From an uncultured bacterium (GTDB taxonomy: Bacteria > Babelota > Babeliae > Babelales > Babelaceae): a stretch of 64,000 nucleotides of DNA. The stretch is from assembly GCA_963819815.1 (NCBI GenBank), contig CAWFXL010000001.1, positions 96,001 through 160,000 on the forward strand, given 5' to 3'. A program made the position numbers. Shown one piece after another: positions 30,001 through 42,000 of the stretch (its first letter is position 1; each line of letters begins with the position of its first letter).

Positions 30001-33000
30001 AAGACGGTGAGCCCGTTTCATACAGGCGAGCTCTTCTCGTTTGCCCGTATTAATGACCACTACCTGCCAATCTCGTGGATCAAGATGTTTTGGTAGCAGC
30101 TTATTTAGTTGTGCATCCTCTTTGGTGAGATCCTTGATAGGGTACAAGTCTGGTAGCACACGCAGATTGCCTTGCTTTAAACCAAACTTTTTACGGAATT
30201 CATCAGGGGTCATGCCATCGATGGTGTCATCCTCATCATCAGGTATATCAAAAGTTACATTCTTTTTTGGCTTAGAAGCGACTTTTGCAGTGGCTGGCAC
30301 TCTAAGGTCTACCGGAATATGTTCTTGAAGCAGGTCTGCTGCAGAGCGTATTTTTTGAAGACTCGTGGATTCTTTTTTAGTAGGGGCTCTCTGTAAGTAT
30401 TTCAGTATAACCTGATCGTTTCCATCCTTTTGGAGGGGATCTATAATCTTCATCGGTTTTCTACAGGTAGGGCATTGATGCTTGCTTCGGGCTGCTTTTA
30501 GAGCTTCTTCCAGAGACAGGTTATGCCCGCACCCTAACTCAATAATAATATGACCTTTATCTACCTCTTGTTGAGACGCAGAACATTTTCGAAGTACCGT
30601 ATCAGGAGCTGGCTTAGTTGAAGGCGTATGTCTCATTAAATACGCGTGTAGCTTGTTTTGTTCTTGAGCGTTGAGCGGCTTTTGACGATGGTGTACATAC
30701 GCATAGCTATTTTTAGTGATCCGAGGATCATGTACCTTATAGGTGCTACGGCAGGTTGGACATGCCCTATCCATTGGATTCGCACGATCCATTGCGATTA
30801 AACAATCTAAGCAATAATGATGGTTAACTTTTTGCTGGCAATCGAACTGAATAACGATACTGTCAGGTGTATAAGCGGTCATGCAAATGGGACAGCCTGT
30901 TCCCTCATCCTCTTCTTCTACTTCATGAGTATGAGCTCTCGGTCCTGTGGCCCAGAGACTTGGGGTAATACTGCCAAAAAGCACTGCTACACCGAGCAGG
31001 GTAATAAGTAATTTCTTCATAGTAAACTTCCACATTTTAGATTTTCTTATATGTTTATATAAGTAGTATAGCCTAAAATGAATAAAACCTTAAGTGGGTA
31101 GAAAAAAGCTTATTCTGAAGCTGTTTTGGACTGCTTATCTACGGCTTGGGCGTATCTTACAAGGAACTGGTAGGCAACACGAATCGCGTGACTAGATGAG
31201 CCTGCATGCTCTATAAGGATAATGAGGACACGGGGCTTTTCATGCTTGTACTGTACATGCGCTGCAAAATATCCATGTGGCATATCTTGCTTTCGTATTG
31301 GCTGAGCATGACGTGCTCTAACCTGGGCAGTGCCTGACTTTCCCTTGAGCTTAAAGCCTTTTAGAGAGCCAAGCATAGAACCGGTACCTTGAGTAATTAC
31401 TCCCTGTAGGCACTCTTGAATGTAGGAAAGTGTAGAAGGTCTTATGGATACGAGTTCATGAACAATGGGCTCATCGGTGAGTATCCGGGGTCTTACTCGA
31501 TAGCCGGTGCATACTGCCGACAGTAGACAGGCTATCTGTAAAGGGGTTACAAGAAGGGAGCTCTGTCCAATGGCAGCTGAAAGGGTTTCTCCAGGCCACC
31601 ACGGCTCATTTTTTACTCTTCTTTTCCATTGGGAGGTTGGAATGAGCCCCTGCTGTTCTGGGAATAATATTCCTGTCTTGTTTCCGAGTCCAAGATCTTG
31701 TGCGTACCAGGCAAGAGTGTCTATTGAAAGACGTTTTCCTATCTCATAAAAGGGTTGATTGCAGGAAAAAGCGAAGGCCTGTTTGGTTGTAAGGGCACCA
31801 TGTACGGCATCATTGTTGCAATGGTAGTGTCTTCCTTTGAAATCAGTATAGCCCCGACAGTTCCAATGAGTATGAGGGGTGACAACGCCTGTTTCAAGCC
31901 CAGCCGCGAGGCTTACCAGCTTAAAAAGGGACGCAGGAGGGTAACATGCGCTGAAGGCCCGATTCATGAAGCCTTTTTTCTCCTGCAGAAGGCTCCACTG
32001 GGAGTGGGTAATAGGTTTAAGAAAGATATTTGGATCAAATGAAGGTCGTGAGAGAACTACTTCAAGGGCCCCGTCCTCGTCCATAAAGATGATGCTCCCT
32101 TCAAGACCCTGAGGAAATACCTCTTCAGCAAACTGCTGAAACGATAGGTTTAAGGTCGTTTGAAGTGTTTTCCCGGCAAGGGCGTGCGAGATGGTATGGG
32201 CATGTAAGGGGTTGCCTATGGCATTGGTAACCTTAAGTATTTGTCCTGCTTGGCCCTGGAGATCTTCTTCATACAACCTCTCAAGGCCCATTTTTCCTTG
32301 GAGTGATTCTTTAACGCTTAGGTATCCTATAATATGGCAGGCAGTGGTGCTGTAGGGATAGCATCGCTCATAGCTCTGCTTTATAGTAAGATTCCTGGAG
32401 GTAGGTACAGTTTCAAGAACTGCGCTGAGCTGCTCATAGGAAATATCAGGTACGAGCTTAAGTTTCGAAGAACGTCTCTCAGCTATCTCTATATCATGCA
32501 TGACTTCTTGGTCGAGATTGCATAGAAGGAGAGCTTGTTGCGCACTCTGCCGTTGTCCTGCTGAAAGCATTACTTTACCGCTACCTTCCCACAGTAAGGA
32601 ATAGACCGGTCTGTTTGTGACAAGCAGCGTACCCTGTTGGTCGGTAATGTTTCCTCGAGGTGAGGCAACCTTTTCCGTTCTGAGATAGTTACGCTTACTC
32701 AGGCTCTTAAACTGATGCATCTGACTAATTTGTAGATGGAATAAATAAAGTACGATCGTTGAAAGCGCGAAGAATATCAGGAAAAGTATATGCCTCATGC
32801 GTGCTGAAAGAATGTGGGGAATATACATAATACTCCCTTATTTAAGGTTGTATTCTTGACAGCGTCTGTTAACCGATGAGCGGTTAACCCCTAAGAGGGT
32901 AGCAATTTTGCTTTGACTTTTGAACTTATGCCAGAGGATAGACATAACATGAGGATCCTTGAGAGCCTTTTTGCCTAGCCGCACTGCATGAGCAATATCT

Positions 33001-39000: not shown

Positions 39001-42000
39001 GTTATGCTCAAGGAGATATTCGCTGCTCGATGTAACTACCGGAATTCCATAATAGGCTCCAGCTTCATATAAGAAAAAACTGGTGAACAGGAGATTGCAT
39101 AGAAGGTTTAAACTATGAAGGAAGGTGCACTTAATTCTTTGGGTTAAGAGGTATTCAAAAAAGAGGGCTAATGCCTGATGTGCACTGATAAAAAGACTCA
39201 GAGAAATTCGGCAATAGAGAGTAAAAAGGGGGATATCGCCCTGTATTTCAAGAATCCTTCGTAAAACGATCGATCCAATATAGGTAGCATCATCAAGGAG
39301 CGTTCCGAAAAGAAATATGAGTAATAGAAAAAGAGGTGCCCTGAGCTGTGGTTTATTATACCAAAACTTCACAATAAACCGGCCAATAACGAGCTTGGCA
39401 AGGCTCACAAGGATGAGCGCGCCACACGTTATATACGGATTAACAAGAAAAGAGGTGAGTGCTTCCAATAAGTGGTTCATCCCTAATATCTCTAGTTCCC
39501 TCTCATGAGGGTGTATATACATGAGTACTGCTTGTACTATTAATTTAAACAAACTAATCTATTGGTCAAATGGTTGGCGGGTCTCCTTTGTTGTCTAATG
39601 GGCAGTAAAAAGGTAAAGTAGCCCATAGGTAGCAAGGAGTGTCATGCAGCTTCAGGAAAAAATAGTACGCATTATACAGCTTTTAAAAGAGGCAACAAAA
39701 GATATGCCTCCGACCTTAACGACGTCCCTCATAAAAGACTATGGGCGGGACCCGTTTATTATCCTTATTTCGTGTCTTTTGAGCCTCCGTGCAAAAGATA
39801 CAGCCACCTATCCGGTGAGTAAAAAGCTCTTTGAGCGAGTGCGTACGCCTGAGGAGCTGCTTAAGATGCCTGTTAAAGAGCTCGAGGAACTTCTTTATCC
39901 GCTTGGGTTTTATCGTAAGAAGACCGAAACTGTCCGATCGGTTTGCCAAGAGCTTATTAGGAGGTTTAAGGGAAATGTACCGCATACCGAGGAGGAGCTC
40001 CTCTCCTTAAAGGGAGTTGGGCGGAAAACAGCCCAGCTCGTACTTGGTAGTGCCTTCAAAATACCCACTATTTGCGTTGATACCCATGTACATAGGATTG
40101 CCAATAGGCTTGGCTGGATCCAGACGACCCATCCTGATGAAACGGAAAGGGAATTAAAACGGCTCATTCCACAAGAATATTGGCTGGATATTAATACCTA
40201 TCTCGTTATGTGGGGCCAGAATATCTGTGTACCCATCTCACCCAAATGTTCCCAATGTGTTTTGAGTCCCTTATGCCCTAAAATTGGCGTAGGGAAAAGA
40301 AGGTAATGGTGCGCCATTGTTGTATCCAATACGAACGTGTGGCTGATGGGATCAGGTCATTTTAATGGGGCAGGATCTTAGGGGGTACTGAGCTCGTTCT
40401 TGACGTTCTTGAGTTACTCGTGTATCTTAAGTAATAGCTTTTACTGGAAATCCTTTTGTTGTTTGATCCAATTCTGACGTAGTCTAGTTGCACTCACAAG
40501 TAGGTAGTACCTAAAAGTATTTTGATACATTTTTCTAACATCTATTTTGTGAGGTTCTTGAATGAAACTATACGTAGGAAACCTTTCCCGCTCTACAACG
40601 GATGATACGGTTCGACAAGCATTTGAACAATTTGGCGAAGTATCGTCAGTTCGAATTCTCTTCGATCGTGAAACCCGCCAATCTCGTGGTTTCGGCTTTG
40701 TCGAAATGCCACAAGATGAGCAAGCGAAAGAAGCTATGGATAAGCTTAATGAAACTGAAATTGAAGGTCGTCGCATTCGTGTAAACGAAGCGCGCGAACC
40801 AGAACGCACCGGCGGAAGCAGTGGTGGTGGCCGTTCGGGTGGTGGTTTCCGCGGTGATCGCGGCGGTGACCGTGGTCCACGTGATGGCGGTTTTAGAAAT
40901 CGTTTCTAAGTTTTGAAACAAACAAAAGGGTGGGCCTTAAAACCCACTCTTTTTTGTTGTCTATCTTGTTAGGCTACCCCCCCGTAATCAGTACATTGTA
41001 TCATAAGCCCAGGCAGGAATACCTCTCATGAGCTCGATGAGTTATAGAAACTTGCCTTATAACTCATAAAATGATAAAATATGAGTTATAGAGGATGACC
41101 TATGCAGTGGAACTGGCAGCTGGCTACATGGCCGAATTTTACCTATAACCCTGATAGCATAACTGAGCTTGAAAGAACATTTCTTTTAAGAGCAGGCAGC
41201 AGCTATGCTTTGTTATGCACTACAGGTGAGAAGGATAGAACTCAATTTATAATTGAGATGCTCACTCAAGAAGGATTAGAAAGTTCAAAAATTGAGGGAG
41301 AGCTTCTCGACCGGGAAAGTTTAGTATCATCAATTAAAAAGCACTTTGGGTTGCATGATGATAGTAAGAATCAATCTAATAAAGAGGCGGGGATGGCTGA
41401 GCTTCTCTGTAACGTATATGAGACCTACGATGCACCGCTTAGCCACGAAATGCTTTGGCAATGGCATGGGATGCTCTTTAAAAAAAATTGGTCCAGTCTT
41501 GAAGAATGCGGACAGTATCGGACACATAAAGAGCCGATGCAGATTGTTTCTGGTCATGGTGATGGACGCATCTACTTCGAAGCGCCCCCTTCAAAGAATG
41601 TATACAAAGAAATGACGAGATTTATCGAATGGTATAATGCTTCAGGCACTTCAGAGACTCTTTTAGGACGAGCTGCTCTTGCACATGTGTACTTTGAAAG
41701 TATTCATCCCTTTGAAGATGGAAATGGAAGGATAGGCAGAGTTCTTGTGGAAAAAGTTCTCTCCCAAGGAGCTCAACAACCTCTTTTGATTGCAGTTTCA
41801 AAGTGCATTGAAAAACGCAAAAAGGCCTATTATACAGAACTTGAAAGATGTAATAGGACGGTTGAGGTACAGCACGGGGTTGAGTTTTTTGCCCACATAA
41901 TCCTGCAAGCTCAGCAAGATTCGATGAGGCTTCTCAACTTTTTGATGCAGAAGTCTAAAATGCTTACGGCGCTATCAGGAAAAATCAATCAACGACAAGA

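What a model noticed while it worked through the whole genome (the two positions that open the first line are those of the whole stretch)
32838..39522. Membrane-anchored, ATPase-dead enhancer-binding-protein relatives in a lineage without sigma-54
Two paralogous 904- and 920-aa proteins (g00124, g00128) join a five-helix membrane domain and a ~350-aa cytoplasmic middle part to the C-terminal two thirds of a sigma-54 activator (AAA+ core plus Fis-type HTH) in which Walker A, Walker B and the GAFTGA loop are all replaced; the family is kept in 36 of 41 Babelaceae genomes, none of which has sigma-54. I read them as membrane-bound one-component transcription factors made from a bacterial enhancer-binding protein by loss of ATPase and of sigma-54 contact, and as major regulators of these TF-poor parasites. 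A conserved pseudo-AAA+ EBP tethered to the membrane and working with sigma-70 would be a new regulator type.
Evidence so far: Pfam: only HMM positions 59-168 of Sigma54_activat/Sigma54_activ_2 match (residues 676-779), nothing N-terminal. Swiss-Prot: TyrR 25% over 252 aa (res. 662-903 to TyrR 268-506, E 2e-14), NtrC, AtoC. Hydropathy peaks at 18, 50, 124, 160, 231 of g00124. At the Walker A place all 8 aligned homologues (this genome x2, six relatives of the genus) read (K/R)KA(T/V)L(L/I)..P(E/D)..(L/I), no GxxGxGK; Walker B reads GTL(F/Y)I(Q/E)N(V/I/L)E instead of GTLFLDE; ESELFG..GAFTGA is reduced to LFG(H/L/I)N. C-terminus KIA(T/H)LLGVNRSSVNRRC = Fis-type HTH. search_genomes: matches in 36 of 41 Babelaceae genomes, 19 of 21 genera, up to 9 matches per genome, often tandem pairs. 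Sigma54_DBD (PF04552): 0 of 41 ge [...]
(Added by a program. Inside this text positions count along the whole contig: contig position 96,001 is position 1 of the stretch shown here. "Call 12" and the like, gene names such as g00115 and contig names such as C1 are that model's own, and its searches are not shown. The text may have been shortened before it was handed on; [...] marks where a part breaks off. The agent that wrote the report below was given it as the finding of a first reader that could run no searches.)

Follow-up and report, generated by a model that had tools for sequence, protein, structure and literature searches.

The report
Membrane receptor-regulators with dead ATPase
Two neighbouring genes of a Dependentiae parasite encode seven-helix membrane receptors fused to a DNA-binding regulator whose sigma-54-activator motor has lost every working motif, and one of them sits back to back with three small genes for secreted peptides that are probably its partner or target.

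Summary
Window 32838-35552(-) and 36760-39522(-) encode 904- and 920-aa paralogues that are 49% identical. Each has a complete enhancer-binding-protein AAA+ fold and a Fis-type HTH, but the P-loop, Walker B DE, GAFTGA and arginine fingers are all replaced; 0 of 108 family members keep a P-loop or GAFTGA.

- The membrane domain has seven helices, not five.
- The middle part looks like GAF, a coiled coil and PAS.
- The whole AAA+ fold is kept, not two thirds of it.

No sigma-54 was found in this assembly, and none over cut-off in 201 sampled genomes of the phylum. The family occurs in 152 of those 201.

New here: the 1.2-kb gap holds three tandem cassettes. Each has a near-consensus promoter, a Shine-Dalgarno site, a 40-41-aa signal-peptide gene ending in FPF, and a palindromic terminator. 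Family-wide, 62 of 83 regulator genes have a divergent small gene for a hydrophobic peptide ending in Pro-Pro. The genome-wide background is 9 of 594.

My reading is a sigma-70-type membrane one-component regulator paired with a micropeptide, often lying upstream of PBP2. DNA binding, peptide binding and targets are all inferred.

This scan's earlier notes describe the same family on other genomes. My searches found no paper on it.

The parts
32838..35552 (-). g124: 904-aa 7TM / GAF-like / PAS-like / pseudo-AAA+ / HTH regulator
   Evidence: ORF and translation. Pfam Sigma54_activat E 4.8e-10. Family alignment.
34773..35552 (-). g124 residues 1-260: seven-helix membrane domain, N-terminus out and C-terminus in by the positive-inside rule
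   Evidence: AlphaFold2 pLDDT 90.5, helices 14-41, 46-75, 83-112, 119-142, 151-183, 190-214, 227-260. No Pfam family in 46 members. A profile search finds the domain only at the N-terminus of this family, in the top 150 of 403 hits. The best structural matches are GPCRs, Z 13.4-15.9.
34239..34739 (-). g124 residues 272-438: GAF-like alpha/beta domain (provisional)
   Evidence: Secondary-structure pattern of the AF2 model. Atlas feature leads to GAF/PAS clusters, 0.87-0.91. No Pfam or PDB sequence match.
34131..34232 (-). g124 residues 441-474: long helix (coiled-coil linker) with the near-invariant KHQEINQYKESIRSF
   Evidence: AF2 helix 187-220 of the fragment model. Conservation.
33867..34109 (-). 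g124 residues 482-562: PAS-like domain (beta-beta-alpha-alpha-beta-beta-beta)
   Evidence: AF2 model. Weak PAS_8 or PAS_9 hits in 3 and 1 of 30 members. Atlas leads.
33054..33677 (-). g124 residues 626-833: complete AAA+ fold of the enhancer-binding-protein type, with no P-loop, no Walker B DE, no GAFTGA and no arginine fingers
   Evidence: Alignment to PspF, TyrR, DhaR and NtrC. Foldseek to the PspF AAA+ domain: E 9e-10, TM 0.67-0.70 on the target. Motif counts in 108 sequences.
32853..33002 (-). g124 residues 851-900: four-helix Fis-type HTH, the most conserved segment (LLGVNRSSVNRRC)
   Evidence: AF2 helices. Alignment with the NtrC, TyrR and DhaR HTH. Near-invariant columns. HTH_8 is only sub-threshold.
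36760..39522 (-). g128: 920-aa paralogue with the same architecture and no peptide gene upstream
   Evidence: In the tree it falls in a sister clade of peptide-less copies. A promoter-like TTGACC-16-TAAATT lies at 39569-39542.
35731..35853 (+). small gene 1: 40-aa precursor MAKLIVSALFAILMTGAVAEVSAQTRSEVAKTYAICPFPF
   Evidence: ORF. AGGAGT Shine-Dalgarno. Differences between copies fall on codon position 3 > 1 > 2. Gene-called but unnamed in public collections.
36159..36284 (+). small gene 2: 41-aa precursor ending CPFPF
36572..36697 (+). small gene 3: 41-aa precursor ending ARFPF
35569..35596 (+). promoter of small gene 1 (TTGACT-16-TAGAAT). Its -10 overlaps a TATAAC on the minus strand about 35-40 nt upstream of the g124 start codon
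   Evidence: Promoter scan, 10 of 12 matches. The block is conserved in same-genus relatives. The minus-strand -10 was read from the sequence.
36001..36028 (+). promoter of small gene 2 (TTGACT-16-TACAAT)
36431..36458 (+). promoter of small gene 3 (TTGACT-16-TAGAAT)
35859..35910 (.). perfect 26+26-nt palindrome, terminator of small gene 1
   Evidence: I1.
36300..36340 (.). 19+19-nt palindrome, terminator of small gene 2
   Evidence: (I3).
36708..36746 (.). 19+19-nt palindrome between small gene 3 and the 3' end of g128, probably a two-way terminator
   Evidence: I2.
31110..32828 (-). PBP2/MrdA-type transpeptidase, starting 9 bp after the g124 stop codon and probably co-transcribed
   Evidence: Pfam Transpeptidase and PBP_dimer. 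NCBIfam pbp2_mrdA at 398 bits, below the 455 cut-off. A homologue lies within the fetched flanks in 37 of 72 related loci.
39644..40306 (+). endonuclease III (nth), the conserved divergent neighbour that marks the upstream edge of the locus
   Evidence: Present in 49 of 72 related loci.

Best explanation
g124 and g128 belong to a family specific to Dependentiae (Babeliales). The proteins are membrane-embedded one-component regulators.

Architecture:
- An N-out, C-in seven-helix receptor domain comes first.
- It is followed in the cytoplasm by a GAF-like domain, a coiled coil and a PAS-like domain.
- Then comes an enhancer-binding-protein AAA+ domain that keeps its fold but cannot bind or hydrolyse nucleotide or touch sigma-54.
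- The protein ends in a Fis-type HTH.

Mechanism (inferred). They cannot work as sigma-54 activators. I infer that they bind DNA through the near-invariant HTH and act on the cell's single sigma-70 holoenzyme, as the atypical EBPs TyrR, DhaR, VpsR and NtrX do. The dead AAA+ domain would serve as an oligomerisation or allosteric scaffold that passes the state of the sensor domains to the HTH.

The peptide partner. The regulator forms a conserved two-gene module with a divergent micropeptide gene. At g124 there are three tandem copies, each encoding a signal peptide plus about 17 residues ending in FPF. In most relatives the peptide is 25-38 aa: a hydrophobic helix followed by Pro-Pro and 1-4 more residues. 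The two genes start from back-to-back promoters whose -10 hexamers overlap, so RNA polymerase can load in only one direction at a time.

Most likely circuit (inferred). The peptide is exposed on the outer face of the inner membrane or released into the periplasm. It is either the ligand or co-receptor of the 7TM domain, or the main regulated product. The regulator sets the balance between peptide expression and expression of its own operon, which in g124 and many relatives continues into PBP2 (cell-wall elongation).

Shown: architecture, motif loss, conservation, pairing, promoter layout.
Inferred: DNA binding, the sigma-70 mechanism, the peptide-receptor contact and the output.
For: Architecture:
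- AF2 models of residues 1-270 (pLDDT 90.5) and 255-904 (pLDDT 83.9).
- Foldseek matches to PspF, NtrC1 and NtrX AAA+ domains at E about 1e-9.

Motif loss with conserved replacements:
- Alignment and counts: 0 of 108 with a P-loop, 0 of 108 with GAFTGA.
- N at the Walker B glutamate position in 107 of 108, and D634 invariant.

No sigma-54:
- None in this assembly, and none over cut-off in 0 of 201 genomes of the phylum.
- One Sigma70_r2 match in the assembly.

Conservation:
- The HTH is the most conserved segment.
- The family is in 152 of 201 sampled genomes, and 137 of 176 high-quality ones.
- It is under purifying selection at 40-80% identity.

Peptide genes are real:
- Three cassettes, each with a 10-of-12 promoter, AGGAGT, an ORF and a perfect palindrome.
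- Differences between copies by codon position are 7, 2, 12 for copies 1 and 2.
- Orthologues exist in relatives.

Pairing:
- 62 of 83 family genes with at least 400 bp of upstream sequence have a divergent small ORF with a hydrophobic segment and a C-terminal PP-type motif within 900 bp.
- The same-strand control gives 0 of 83, and downstream on the same strand 1 of 82.
- The genome-wide control gives 9 of 594 long ORFs, one of which is g124.

Promoter layout:
- AGTATA occurs in 31 of 42 short-type intergenic regions, mostly 30-49 nt before the regulator ATG. It reads TATAAT on one strand and TATACT on the other.
- The TTGAC-spacer-TAGAAT block is conserved in same-genus relatives.

Other support:
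- The 7TM domain is the fastest-evolving part, at 20-35% identity against 52-60% for the cytoplasmic part. A receptor tracking a fast-evolving peptide would behave this way.
- PBP2 lies downstream in 37 of 72 loci.
Against: - Nothing has been tested by experiment: not DNA binding, not membrane insertion, not peptide secretion, not any target gene.
- No palindromic operator emerged from the k-mer survey of 42 intergenic regions.
- HTH_8 stays below Pfam's cut-off.
- The GAF and PAS assignments rest on a predicted fold and language-model leads only. A profile of the middle part finds nothing in the PDB sequences, even at E 10.
- 21 of 83 family genes, g128 among them, have no detectable peptide gene upstream. 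The peptide therefore cannot be an obligatory private partner of every copy.
- The peptide promoters are near consensus. That argues against a need for activation and leaves repression or promoter competition as the likelier control.
- The assembly is 88% complete and carries a foreign-looking segment with a canonical EBP. Absence of sigma-54 in this one genome is therefore weaker evidence than the phylum-wide count.
Confidence: 0.62

Rival explanations
1. The peptides are only the regulated product, for example abundant secreted or envelope peptides acting on the host or the cell wall, and not the signal. The 7TM domain would sense something else, such as a lipid, an envelope state or a host cue.
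For: - The promoters are near consensus, the Shine-Dalgarno sites strong, and the gene is present in three tandem copies. This looks like a high-output product gene.
- 21 of 83 family genes lack a peptide gene yet keep the 7TM domain.
- The peptide-less paralogue g128 is intact and conserved.
Against: - The pairing holds across the whole family tree while the peptide sequence changes almost completely, apart from the Pro-Pro end.
- The 7TM domain is the most variable part of the regulator.
- Both points are what receptor-ligand pairs show, but neither is decisive.
Confidence: 0.25
2. The protein is not a transcription factor. The dead AAA+ domain and HTH would be a structural remnant, and the protein a membrane scaffold or sensor of the cell-wall elongation machinery encoded next to it (PBP2).
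For: - PBP2/MrdA follows g124 after 9 bp, and a homologue lies in 37 of 72 related loci.
- No operator was found.
- HTH_8 is sub-threshold.
Against: - The HTH recognition region is the best-conserved stretch of a 900-aa protein across 108 sequences. A remnant would not be expected to show this.
- The regulator and its divergent neighbour share an overlapping promoter pair, the classic layout of a regulator with its target.
Confidence: 0.08
3. They are still sigma-54-type activators, working with an unrecognised, highly divergent sigma-54 or using another subunit's ATPase.
For: - Public annotation calls them 'sigma 54-interacting transcriptional regulator'.
- Two genomes of 201 have sub-threshold Sigma54_DBD matches.
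Against: - No Sigma54_DBD or Sigma54_CBD match in the assembly.
- 0 of 201 genomes over cut-off.
- GAFTGA, the P-loop, Walker B and the arginine fingers are absent in 108 of 108 sequences.
- The only canonical EBP in the assembly lies in a 65%-GC foreign segment.
Confidence: 0.02
4. The small ORFs are chance ORFs, and the 1.2-kb gap is a repeat array with no coding role.
For: They are short, and most short-type counterparts in relatives are not gene-called: 6 of the 7 that I looked up are absent from the protein collection.
Against: - There are three copies, each with a promoter, a Shine-Dalgarno site, an ORF and a terminator.
- Differences are biased to the third codon position.
- Counterparts lie at the same position in 62 of 83 family genes, against 9 of 594 genome-wide and 0 of 83 on the other strand.
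Confidence: 0.03

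Closest known systems
Atypical, sigma-70-dependent enhancer-binding-protein homologues (E. 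coli TyrR and DhaR, P. putida PhhR, V. cholerae VpsR, B. abortus NtrX, R. capsulatus HupR, M. xanthus HsfA)
   Same: - An EBP-type AAA+ domain and a C-terminal Fis-type HTH without the GAFTGA loop.
- Some have non-consensus Walker motifs, and they act with sigma-70 RNA polymerase (passages of PMC6158489).
- NCBIfam models of TyrR, DhaR and NtrX are among the best full-length-style matches.
- DhaR and TyrR also carry sensor domains N-terminal to the AAA+ domain; that these include PAS is recalled, not tested here. E. coli DhaR's Walker B reads GTLFLEK in my alignment.
   Different: - Those proteins are soluble. The E. coli TyrR and DhaR sequences I aligned keep a glycine-rich P-loop.
- Here the P-loop is deleted or replaced in 108 of 108 sequences and the arginine fingers are gone.
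- A seven-helix membrane domain is fused at the N-terminus.
- The gene is paired with a micropeptide gene.
Canonical bacterial enhancer-binding proteins (NtrC, PspF, NtrC1; Pfam Sigma54_activat)
   Same: - A homologous AAA+ fold: Pfam over cut-off, and Foldseek to PspF at E 9e-10 with TM 0.67-0.70.
- A homologous HTH.
   Different: - No ATPase motifs and no sigma-54 contact loop.
- No sigma-54 in the lineage.
Transmembrane transcription regulators of the ToxR/CadC/TcpP type
   Same: One polypeptide joins a membrane anchor, a sensor and a DNA-binding domain. Several need a small or accessory membrane partner (ToxS, TcpH, VtrC; table in PMC10269533).
   Different: - Those have an N-terminal winged-helix domain, one membrane helix and a periplasmic C-terminal sensor (recalled).
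- Here the order is reversed, with seven helices, about 640 cytoplasmic residues and a Fis-type HTH at the C-terminus.
- The main text of the 2023 survey PMC10269533 has no occurrence of HTH_8, sigma-54 or sigma54. Its supplements were not read.
Polytopic peptide receptors with an adjacent precursor gene (Agr-type AgrC/AgrD), and small membrane-protein modulators of sensors (MgrB-PhoQ); all recalled
   Same: A multi-helix membrane sensor encoded next to a gene for a small hydrophobic or secreted peptide, with divergent promoters.
   Different: - The output here would be direct DNA binding, not a histidine kinase.
- No processing enzyme gene was looked for.
- There is no sequence similarity, and the analogy is untested.
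Class A G-protein-coupled receptors (fold only)
   Same: The top 50 of 48,161 representative chains are all GPCRs: Z 13.4-15.9, rmsd 3.9-5.5 A over 225-249 of 270 residues. Topology is the same, N-out and C-in.
   Different: - Identity is 6-12%, and Foldseek E-values are 5e-3 or weaker.
- By the tool's own calibration, Z near 14 is what helical bundles often reach.
- No membership is claimed.

Membership tests
Bacterial enhancer-binding proteins (sigma-54 activators) | AAA+ domain homologous to Pfam Sigma54_activat | tested here: met
   PF00158 at E 4.8e-10 and 5.6e-10, over the cut-off, but covering only HMM positions 67-168. Foldseek to PspF: E 9e-10.
Bacterial enhancer-binding proteins (sigma-54 activators) | Walker A P-loop GxxxxGK[ST] | tested here: not met
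   Replaced by LPE---EDL. 0 of 108 family sequences have it.
Bacterial enhancer-binding proteins (sigma-54 activators) | Walker B hhhhDE | tested here: not met
   GTLFIQN. Position 697 reads Q72/E21/K12 and position 698 reads N in 107 of 108.
Bacterial enhancer-binding proteins (sigma-54 activators) | GAFTGA sigma-54 contact loop | tested here: not met
   LFG(H/I/L)NP(L/I) in its place. 0 of 108 have a GAFTGA-like string.
Bacterial enhancer-binding proteins (sigma-54 activators) | Arginine fingers / sensor arginines (FRxDLxxRL, LPPLRER) | tested here: not met
   FCQELYDEL and MPPMHEL in g124. Across the family these read FS(K)xLFNEL and MPSL.
Bacterial enhancer-binding proteins (sigma-54 activators) | Sigma-54 present in the same genome | tested here: not met
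   PF04552 and PF04963 give 0 matches in G000, which is 88% complete. PF04552 over cut-off is found in 0 of 201 genomes of the phylum.
Bacterial enhancer-binding proteins (sigma-54 activators) | C-terminal Fis-type HTH | tested here: inconclusive
   HTH_8 reaches only E 0.04-0.16, in 10 of 30 members. The segment does align with the HTH of NtrC, TyrR and DhaR, and it folds as four helices.
Atypical sigma-70-dependent EBP homologues (TyrR, DhaR, VpsR, NtrX ...) | EBP AAA+ domain plus HTH without GAFTGA | tested here: met
Atypical sigma-70-dependent EBP homologues (TyrR, DhaR, VpsR, NtrX ...) | Acts on sigma-70 RNA polymerase at -35/-10 promoters | not testable with these tools
   Indirect only. 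There is one Sigma70_r2 match in the assembly, and -35/-10-like promoters flank the genes.
Atypical sigma-70-dependent EBP homologues (TyrR, DhaR, VpsR, NtrX ...) | Soluble protein with cytoplasmic N-terminal sensor or receiver domains | tested here: not met
   Seven predicted membrane helices at the N-terminus.
ToxR/CadC-type transmembrane transcription regulators | Membrane anchor and DNA-binding domain in one chain | tested here: met
   By prediction only.
ToxR/CadC-type transmembrane transcription regulators | N-terminal OmpR-type winged helix, single membrane helix, periplasmic sensor | tested here: not met
   No Trans_reg_C match. The protein has seven helices and its HTH at the C-terminus.
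7TM receptor folds (GPCR-like; HisKA_7TM and other bacterial 7TM sensor domains) | Sequence or fold membership | tested here: inconclusive
   No Pfam family in 46 members. There is an Atlas lead to a HisKA_7TM cluster, 0.90 with 173 shared features. GPCRs are the best structural matches at Z 13.4-15.9, near the noise ceiling for helical bundles.
GAF and PAS sensor domains | Sequence match to the families | tested here: inconclusive
   No GAF hit. PAS_8 appears in 3 of 30 members at E 0.036 or weaker. A profile against PDB sequences gives 0 hits. The predicted topology fits PAS well and GAF loosely. Atlas leads.

The most novel reading that the evidence does not exclude
The locus is a self-contained peptide-sensing circuit of a kind not yet described.

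A micropeptide ending in Pro-Pro (here FPF) is exported. It is read from the periplasmic side by a GPCR-like seven-helix receptor that is itself the transcription factor. The receptor uses a fossil AAA+ ring as its transmission element and toggles a pair of overlapping back-to-back promoters. One direction makes more peptide. The other makes the receptor and the cell-wall elongation enzyme PBP2.

In an obligate intracellular parasite with one sigma factor and no two-component systems, this would be a main developmental or confinement switch. It would be a one-protein analogue of Agr-type quorum sensing.
Probability: 0.25. Interest if true: 0.9.

Novelty: new variant of a known kind. Interest (0 to 1): 0.7.

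Why it matters
- Dependentiae are widespread parasites of protists with almost no recognisable regulators. This assembly shows one sigma-70-type factor, and its only receiver domain lies in the foreign-looking 65%-GC segment, outside the low-GC genome.
- A conserved family, found in 152 of 201 sampled genomes, that couples a seven-helix receptor directly to a DNA-binding domain is a good candidate for how these cells read their host or their own density.
- It also shows what becomes of an enhancer-binding protein once sigma-54 is lost. The motor is kept as a scaffold, and its dead motif positions come under new constraint.
- Public annotation ('sigma 54-interacting transcriptional regulator') misleads on mechanism.
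- The partner peptide genes are mostly not annotated at all.
- The pairing offers a concrete, testable ligand-receptor hypothesis for a bacterial 7TM receptor.

Tried and rejected
- **Complex prediction** of the 7TM domain (alignment A4) with the peptide precursor (alignment A5): no verdict, score 0.02 against a mark of 0.32, controls not run. This says nothing either way.
- **The look-up of sequencing runs:** one DNA holder (share 0.21) and no RNA holder listed. No reads were laid and nothing can be said about expression.
- **Foldseek of the 7TM model against the PDB:** nothing at E 0.001 or better, only GPCRs at 5e-3 or weaker.
- **Pfam on 46 7TM domains:** only single-member noise.
- **Profile of the middle part against PDB sequences:** 0 hits at E up to 10.
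- **k-mer survey for an operator in 42 intergenic regions:** only promoter-like AGTATAAT and a (G)ATCAATA box at -10 to -12 of the regulator ATG stood out. No palindrome was found.
- **A canonical EBP as the organism's own:** rejected. The 1.3e-50 Sigma54_activat hit at C1:33.3-33.8 kb lies in a 65%-GC segment, against 42% for the rest of the contig.
- **Other weak Sigma54_activat hits in the assembly:** three are ClpB, a generic AAA protein and a MoxR-type AAA_3 protein, and the fourth is a 185-aa ORF with no Pfam match; none is an EBP.
- **Translational-arrest leader peptide (SecM/MifM-like) reading of the Pro-Pro small ORFs:** considered and set aside. In this window each small gene ends in its own terminator and no gene follows on the same strand.
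- **Literature.** No paper holds both 'Dependentiae' and 'sigma-54'. The Chromulinavorax paper lists only merR, yebC and fmdB as regulators (passage). The TM6 comparative-genomics paper has no occurrence of sigma, regulator, transcription, quorum or signal transduction. Listings showed nothing on this family.

Full report
**1. What is there**

Window 32838-35552(-) encodes a 904-aa protein (g124). Window 36760-39522(-) encodes a 920-aa paralogue (g128); the ORF list extends it to a TTG at 39552. The two are 49% identical end to end.

Pfam finds only the C-terminal two thirds of Sigma54_activat and Sigma54_activ_2, at E about 1e-9 to 5e-10. A Fis-type HTH_8 match stays below threshold. NCBIfam gives sub-threshold matches to TyrR, PspF, DhaR, NtrX and other EBPs, several of which run to the C-terminal end.

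**2. The motor is dead but the fold is whole**

I fetched E. coli PspF, TyrR, DhaR and NtrC from NC_000913.3 and aligned them with the C-terminal 330 residues of g124, g128 and four homologues.

| Canonical motif | Reading in g124 |
|---|---|
| GxxGxGK (P-loop) | LPE---EDL, with a 3-residue deletion |
| ESELFGH..GAFTGA | VKLFGHNPLIKKD |
| GTLFLDE (Walker B) | GTLFIQN |
| FRxDLxxRL | FCQELYDEL |
| LPPLRER | MPPMHEL |

The alignment starts before the Walker A strand. The whole domain is therefore present, not two thirds of it.

In 108 full-length family sequences:
- 0 have GxxxxGK[ST] in the last 420 residues.
- 0 have a GAFTGA-like string.
- The Walker B pair reads Q/E/K (72, 21, 12) followed by N in 107.
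- The replacement residues are conserved: D634, G692 and T693 are invariant.

This pattern indicates a new constraint rather than decay.

An AlphaFold2 model of residues 255-904, built from a 108-row alignment, has mean pLDDT 83.9. It shows the full alpha/beta and lid subdomains of an AAA+ domain at residues 626-833 and a four-helix C-terminal bundle at 851-900. Foldseek's best matches are the PspF AAA+ domain (E 9.4e-10, TM 0.67-0.70 on the target, 22% identity), NtrX, NtrC1, DmpR, FlrC and FleQ.

**3. The membrane domain has seven helices**

It shows seven peaks in g128.

The AlphaFold2 model of residues 1-270 has pLDDT 90.5 and pTM 0.88. Its seven long helices span 14-41, 46-75, 83-112, 119-142, 151-183, 190-214 and 227-260. 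The basic loops (KSRR after helix 1, KR after helix 3, RVLRDSNR after helix 5, QKMLGLRFLNIRK after helix 7) place the N-terminus outside and the C-terminus inside. This uses the positive-inside rule and is an inference.

Near-invariant polar residues lie inside the bundle: K28, R90, W93, Q101 and E157. R90 and E157 sit in the outer half, again by inference from the topology.

Attempts to place the domain in a known family:
- No Pfam family matches any of 46 domain sequences beyond single-member noise.
- A profile of the domain against 1.84 billion representative proteins finds 403 proteins at E 0.001 or better. In the best 150 the domain is always N-terminal, in proteins of about 900 aa or in shorter, probably truncated, ones. 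I saw no other output domain, but the remaining 253 hits were not listed.
- Against 48,161 PDB representatives, the top 50 are all G-protein-coupled receptors: Z 13.4-15.9, rmsd 3.9-5.5 A, 225-249 residues aligned, 6-12% identity.
- Foldseek gives the same proteins at E 5e-3 or weaker.
- By the tool's calibration, Z near 14 is common for helical bundles. This is a resemblance of fold and topology, not membership.
- A language-model lead points to a HisKA_7TM cluster at 0.90. It was not confirmed.

**4. The middle part**

The model shows three units:
- An alpha/beta domain at 272-438.
- A long helix at 441-474, carrying the near-invariant KHQEINQYKESIRSF.
- A beta-beta-alpha-alpha-beta-beta-beta unit at 482-562, which has PAS topology.

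Language-model neighbours are GAF and PAS clusters at 0.87-0.91. PAS_8 appears weakly in 3 of 30 members. One source names a homologue 'regulator with GAF, ATPase, and Fis domain'. A profile of this part finds nothing among PDB sequences, even at E 10. I therefore call these domains GAF-like and PAS-like, provisionally.

**5. No sigma-54, one sigma-70**

- Sigma54_DBD and Sigma54_CBD have no match in the assembly of 1.64 Mb, 2 contigs, 88% complete.
- In 201 genomes sampled across the phylum, 176 of them high quality, none has a Sigma54_DBD match over the cut-off. Two have sub-threshold matches.
- The assembly has one Sigma70_r2 match.
- Its only receiver domain lies at C1:33.9 kb.

The best Sigma54_activat hit in the assembly (E 1.3e-50) is a canonical NtrC-type gene with GESGTGKE, GSFTGA and GTFFLDE, lying next to a histidine kinase. 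It sits in the first roughly 52 kb of contig 1, which is 65% GC against 42% for the rest. I read that segment as foreign or chimeric. It carries no sigma-54 either.

Of the other four weak Sigma54_activat hits, three are ClpB, a generic AAA protein and a MoxR-type protein; the fourth, a 185-aa ORF at C1:861.5 kb, has no Pfam match.

**6. Distribution**

- A word-indexed search finds 824 proteins at E 0.001 or better. The best 120 are all about 900 aa and come from Dependentiae or Babeliales records. Several are named 'sigma 54-interacting transcriptional regulator' by NCBI.
- In the phylum sample the family occurs in 152 of 201 genomes, 137 of 176 high-quality ones and 91 of 120 genera. Most genomes have one to four copies.
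- It was not found in some families (0 of 23, 0 of 9, 0 of 4, 0 of 3).

**7. The small genes in the gap**

The 1.2 kb between the paralogues holds three tandem units of about 430 bp on the plus strand. Each unit contains:
- A promoter matching 10 of 12 consensus positions: TTGACT-16-TAGAAT or TACAAT, at 35569, 36001 and 36431.
- A leader of about 130 nt with conserved boxes.
- An AGGAGT Shine-Dalgarno site.
- An ORF of 40-41 codons: 35731-35853, 36159-36284 and 36572-36697.
- A perfect palindrome of 19-26 nt per arm.

The products begin with a signal-peptide-like MAK/MTK plus hydrophobic stretch plus VSAQ. They end in CPFPF or ARFPF. Cleavage after VSA is my reading by rule of thumb, not a prediction by a tool.

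Differences between copies fall on codon positions 1, 2 and 3 as 7, 2 and 12 for copies 1 and 2, and similarly in other pairs. The three peptides are gene-called but unnamed in public collections.

**8. The pairing is family-wide**

I fetched 72 related loci, located 103 family ORFs with a family HMM, and scanned the 900 bp upstream of each full-length gene that had at least 400 bp available.

Pairing result and controls:
- 62 of 83 genes have, on the opposite strand, an ATG-started ORF of 24-70 codons with a hydrophobic segment and a PP, PFP or PWP motif in its last 14 residues. It usually starts 50-260 bp from the regulator start.
- The same scan finds 0 of 83 on the regulator's own strand upstream.
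- It finds 1 of 82 downstream on the same strand.
- It finds 12 of 82 downstream on the opposite strand. Several of those loci carry tandem family genes that each have their own upstream small ORF, so I take them to be largely the next gene's peptide; I did not map the 12 hits.
- Across this genome's low-GC part, 9 of 594 ORFs of 300 aa or more meet the criterion. One of them is g124.

Peptide types:
- In the same-genus relatives of g124 the peptides are 41-51 aa, with a signal-peptide-like start and an end such as GPPY, GPPW or PPPP.
- Elsewhere they are 25-38 aa. A basic N-terminus is followed by 10-20 hydrophobic residues, one to three polar residues, an aromatic or hydrophobic residue, Pro-Pro, and one to four small residues.
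- Of seven short-type peptides looked up, one is in the public protein collection.

21 of 83 genes, g128 included, have no such neighbour. Many of these are the second gene of a tandem pair.

A FastTree of 85 full-length genes, midpoint-rooted and with supports not inspected, puts g124 and g128 in sister clades within their genus-level group. The peptide-less clade sits on longer branches.

**9. Promoter layout**

In 42 short-type pairs the two start codons are 53-157 bp apart. AGTATA occurs in 31 of the 42 regions, above the maximum of 27 seen in 100 shuffles. Its positions cluster 30-49 nt before the regulator ATG.

AGTATAAT reads TATAAT toward the regulator and TATACT toward the peptide gene. 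I take it to be two overlapping -10 elements; this is an inference.

In this window the plus-strand TAGAAT (35591-35596) overlaps a minus-strand TATAAC (35592-35587) in the same way. The TTGAC-spacer-TA(G/T)AAT block is conserved in the same-genus relatives.

The regulators lack a Shine-Dalgarno site, having a (G)ATCAATA or TAGCAA box at -10 to -12 instead. The peptide genes have strong ones. No palindromic operator was found.

**10. Neighbours**

- A PBP2/MrdA-type transpeptidase starts 9 bp after the g124 stop codon on the same strand. A homologue lies within the fetched flanks in 37 of 72 loci.
- Endonuclease III lies on the other side in 49 of 72 loci.
- The conserved order is nth, then the peptide gene(s) on the opposite strand, then one or two regulators, then PBP2.

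**11. Mechanism**

*Shown.* The architecture and motif loss. The conservation. The absence of sigma-54 in the genomes searched. The peptide pairing and the promoter layout.

*Inferred.*
- The proteins are DNA-binding regulators acting on sigma-70 polymerase, with the dead AAA+ domain as a scaffold between the sensors and the HTH.
- They sit in the membrane.
- The peptide is their ligand, co-receptor or main target.
- The overlapping promoters make peptide expression and regulator-PBP2 expression alternatives.

The near-consensus peptide promoters argue for repression or competition rather than activation. Because the peptide and the regulator are both membrane-targeted and encoded side by side, coupled transcription, translation and insertion could keep the target DNA at the membrane. 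This too is an inference, by analogy with the transertion discussed for membrane-bound regulators (abstract of PMC9977878, seen in the listing).

**12. Comparison with what is known**

The closest described class is the atypical EBPs. The passages of PMC6158489 that I read list TyrR, HupR, HsfA, PhhR, NtrX and VpsR as EBP homologues that lack GAFTGA, have non-consensus Walker motifs in some cases, and work with sigma-70.

This family goes further in three ways:
- It has no P-loop at all.
- It carries a 7TM anchor.
- It is paired with a peptide gene.

Membrane-bound one-component regulators of the ToxR/CadC type are known, but they are built the other way round. The main text of a 2023 survey of such regulators has no occurrence of HTH_8, sigma-54 or sigma54; its supplements were not read.

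My literature searches found nothing on this family. Earlier notes of this scan, on six other genomes, describe the same family and the Pro-Pro peptide pairing. They agree with what I found before reading them. They are AI notes and not independent evidence.

**13. Verdict**

- Novelty: a new variant of a known kind (atypical EBP) with a new membrane architecture and a new partner gene.
- Interest is 0.7.

Noticed in passing
outside the window: G000 contig C1 positions 1 to about 52000: The first roughly 52 kb of the 1.6-Mb contig is about 65% GC, against 42% for the rest. It carries a canonical NtrC-type response regulator (REC, intact AAA+ motifs, HTH, with an apparent frameshift near C1:33420) next to a histidine kinase. 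This is probably a chimeric join or foreign DNA, and it would mislead any count of EBPs or two-component systems for this organism.
   Followed up: partly
window 29674-31035 (-): A 453-aa protein with a eukaryote-type RING finger (zf-RING_2, E 4e-9) lies directly downstream of PBP2. It could be a host-directed ubiquitin-ligase-like effector. Homologues were found in only 2 of 72 related loci.
   Followed up: no
window 41102-42199 (+) and 40562-40909 (+): A Fic/DOC protein with DUF4172, and a 115-aa RRM_1 RNA-binding protein, lie close to the locus.
   Followed up: no
window 35684-35702, 36116-36134, 36532-36550 (+): A conserved box GAATTGTAG(C/T)GG..GGTT lies in the leader of each peptide gene, about 25 nt before the Shine-Dalgarno site. 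It is also present as CCACTAC(A/G) on the regulator strand in the nine closest relatives compared (L004-L006, L008-L012, L040) and absent from L022. An upstream inverted repeat (GTAGCAGC ... GTTGCTAC) has variable spacing. These could be an RNA element or a protein site.
   Followed up: partly
window 39523-39541 (-): An AGTAC-N5-GTACT inverted repeat sits immediately before the g128 start codon, downstream of a TTGACC-16-TAAATT promoter-like site.
   Followed up: no
window 35920-35946 and 36359-36385 (+): The repeated element GCTA..A.TGAGGGGAA.GT.CCCCAA, a GGGG/CCCC hairpin, lies about 55-80 bp upstream of the second and third peptide promoters. There is no counterpart upstream of the first (D9).
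   Followed up: no
related loci L041, L044, L048 (upstream of the regulator, opposite strand): Some relatives carry longer small ORFs of 58-62 aa in which the Pro-Pro unit is repeated, for example three DDFPPMG-like repeats. This looks like a multi-copy precursor.
   Followed up: no
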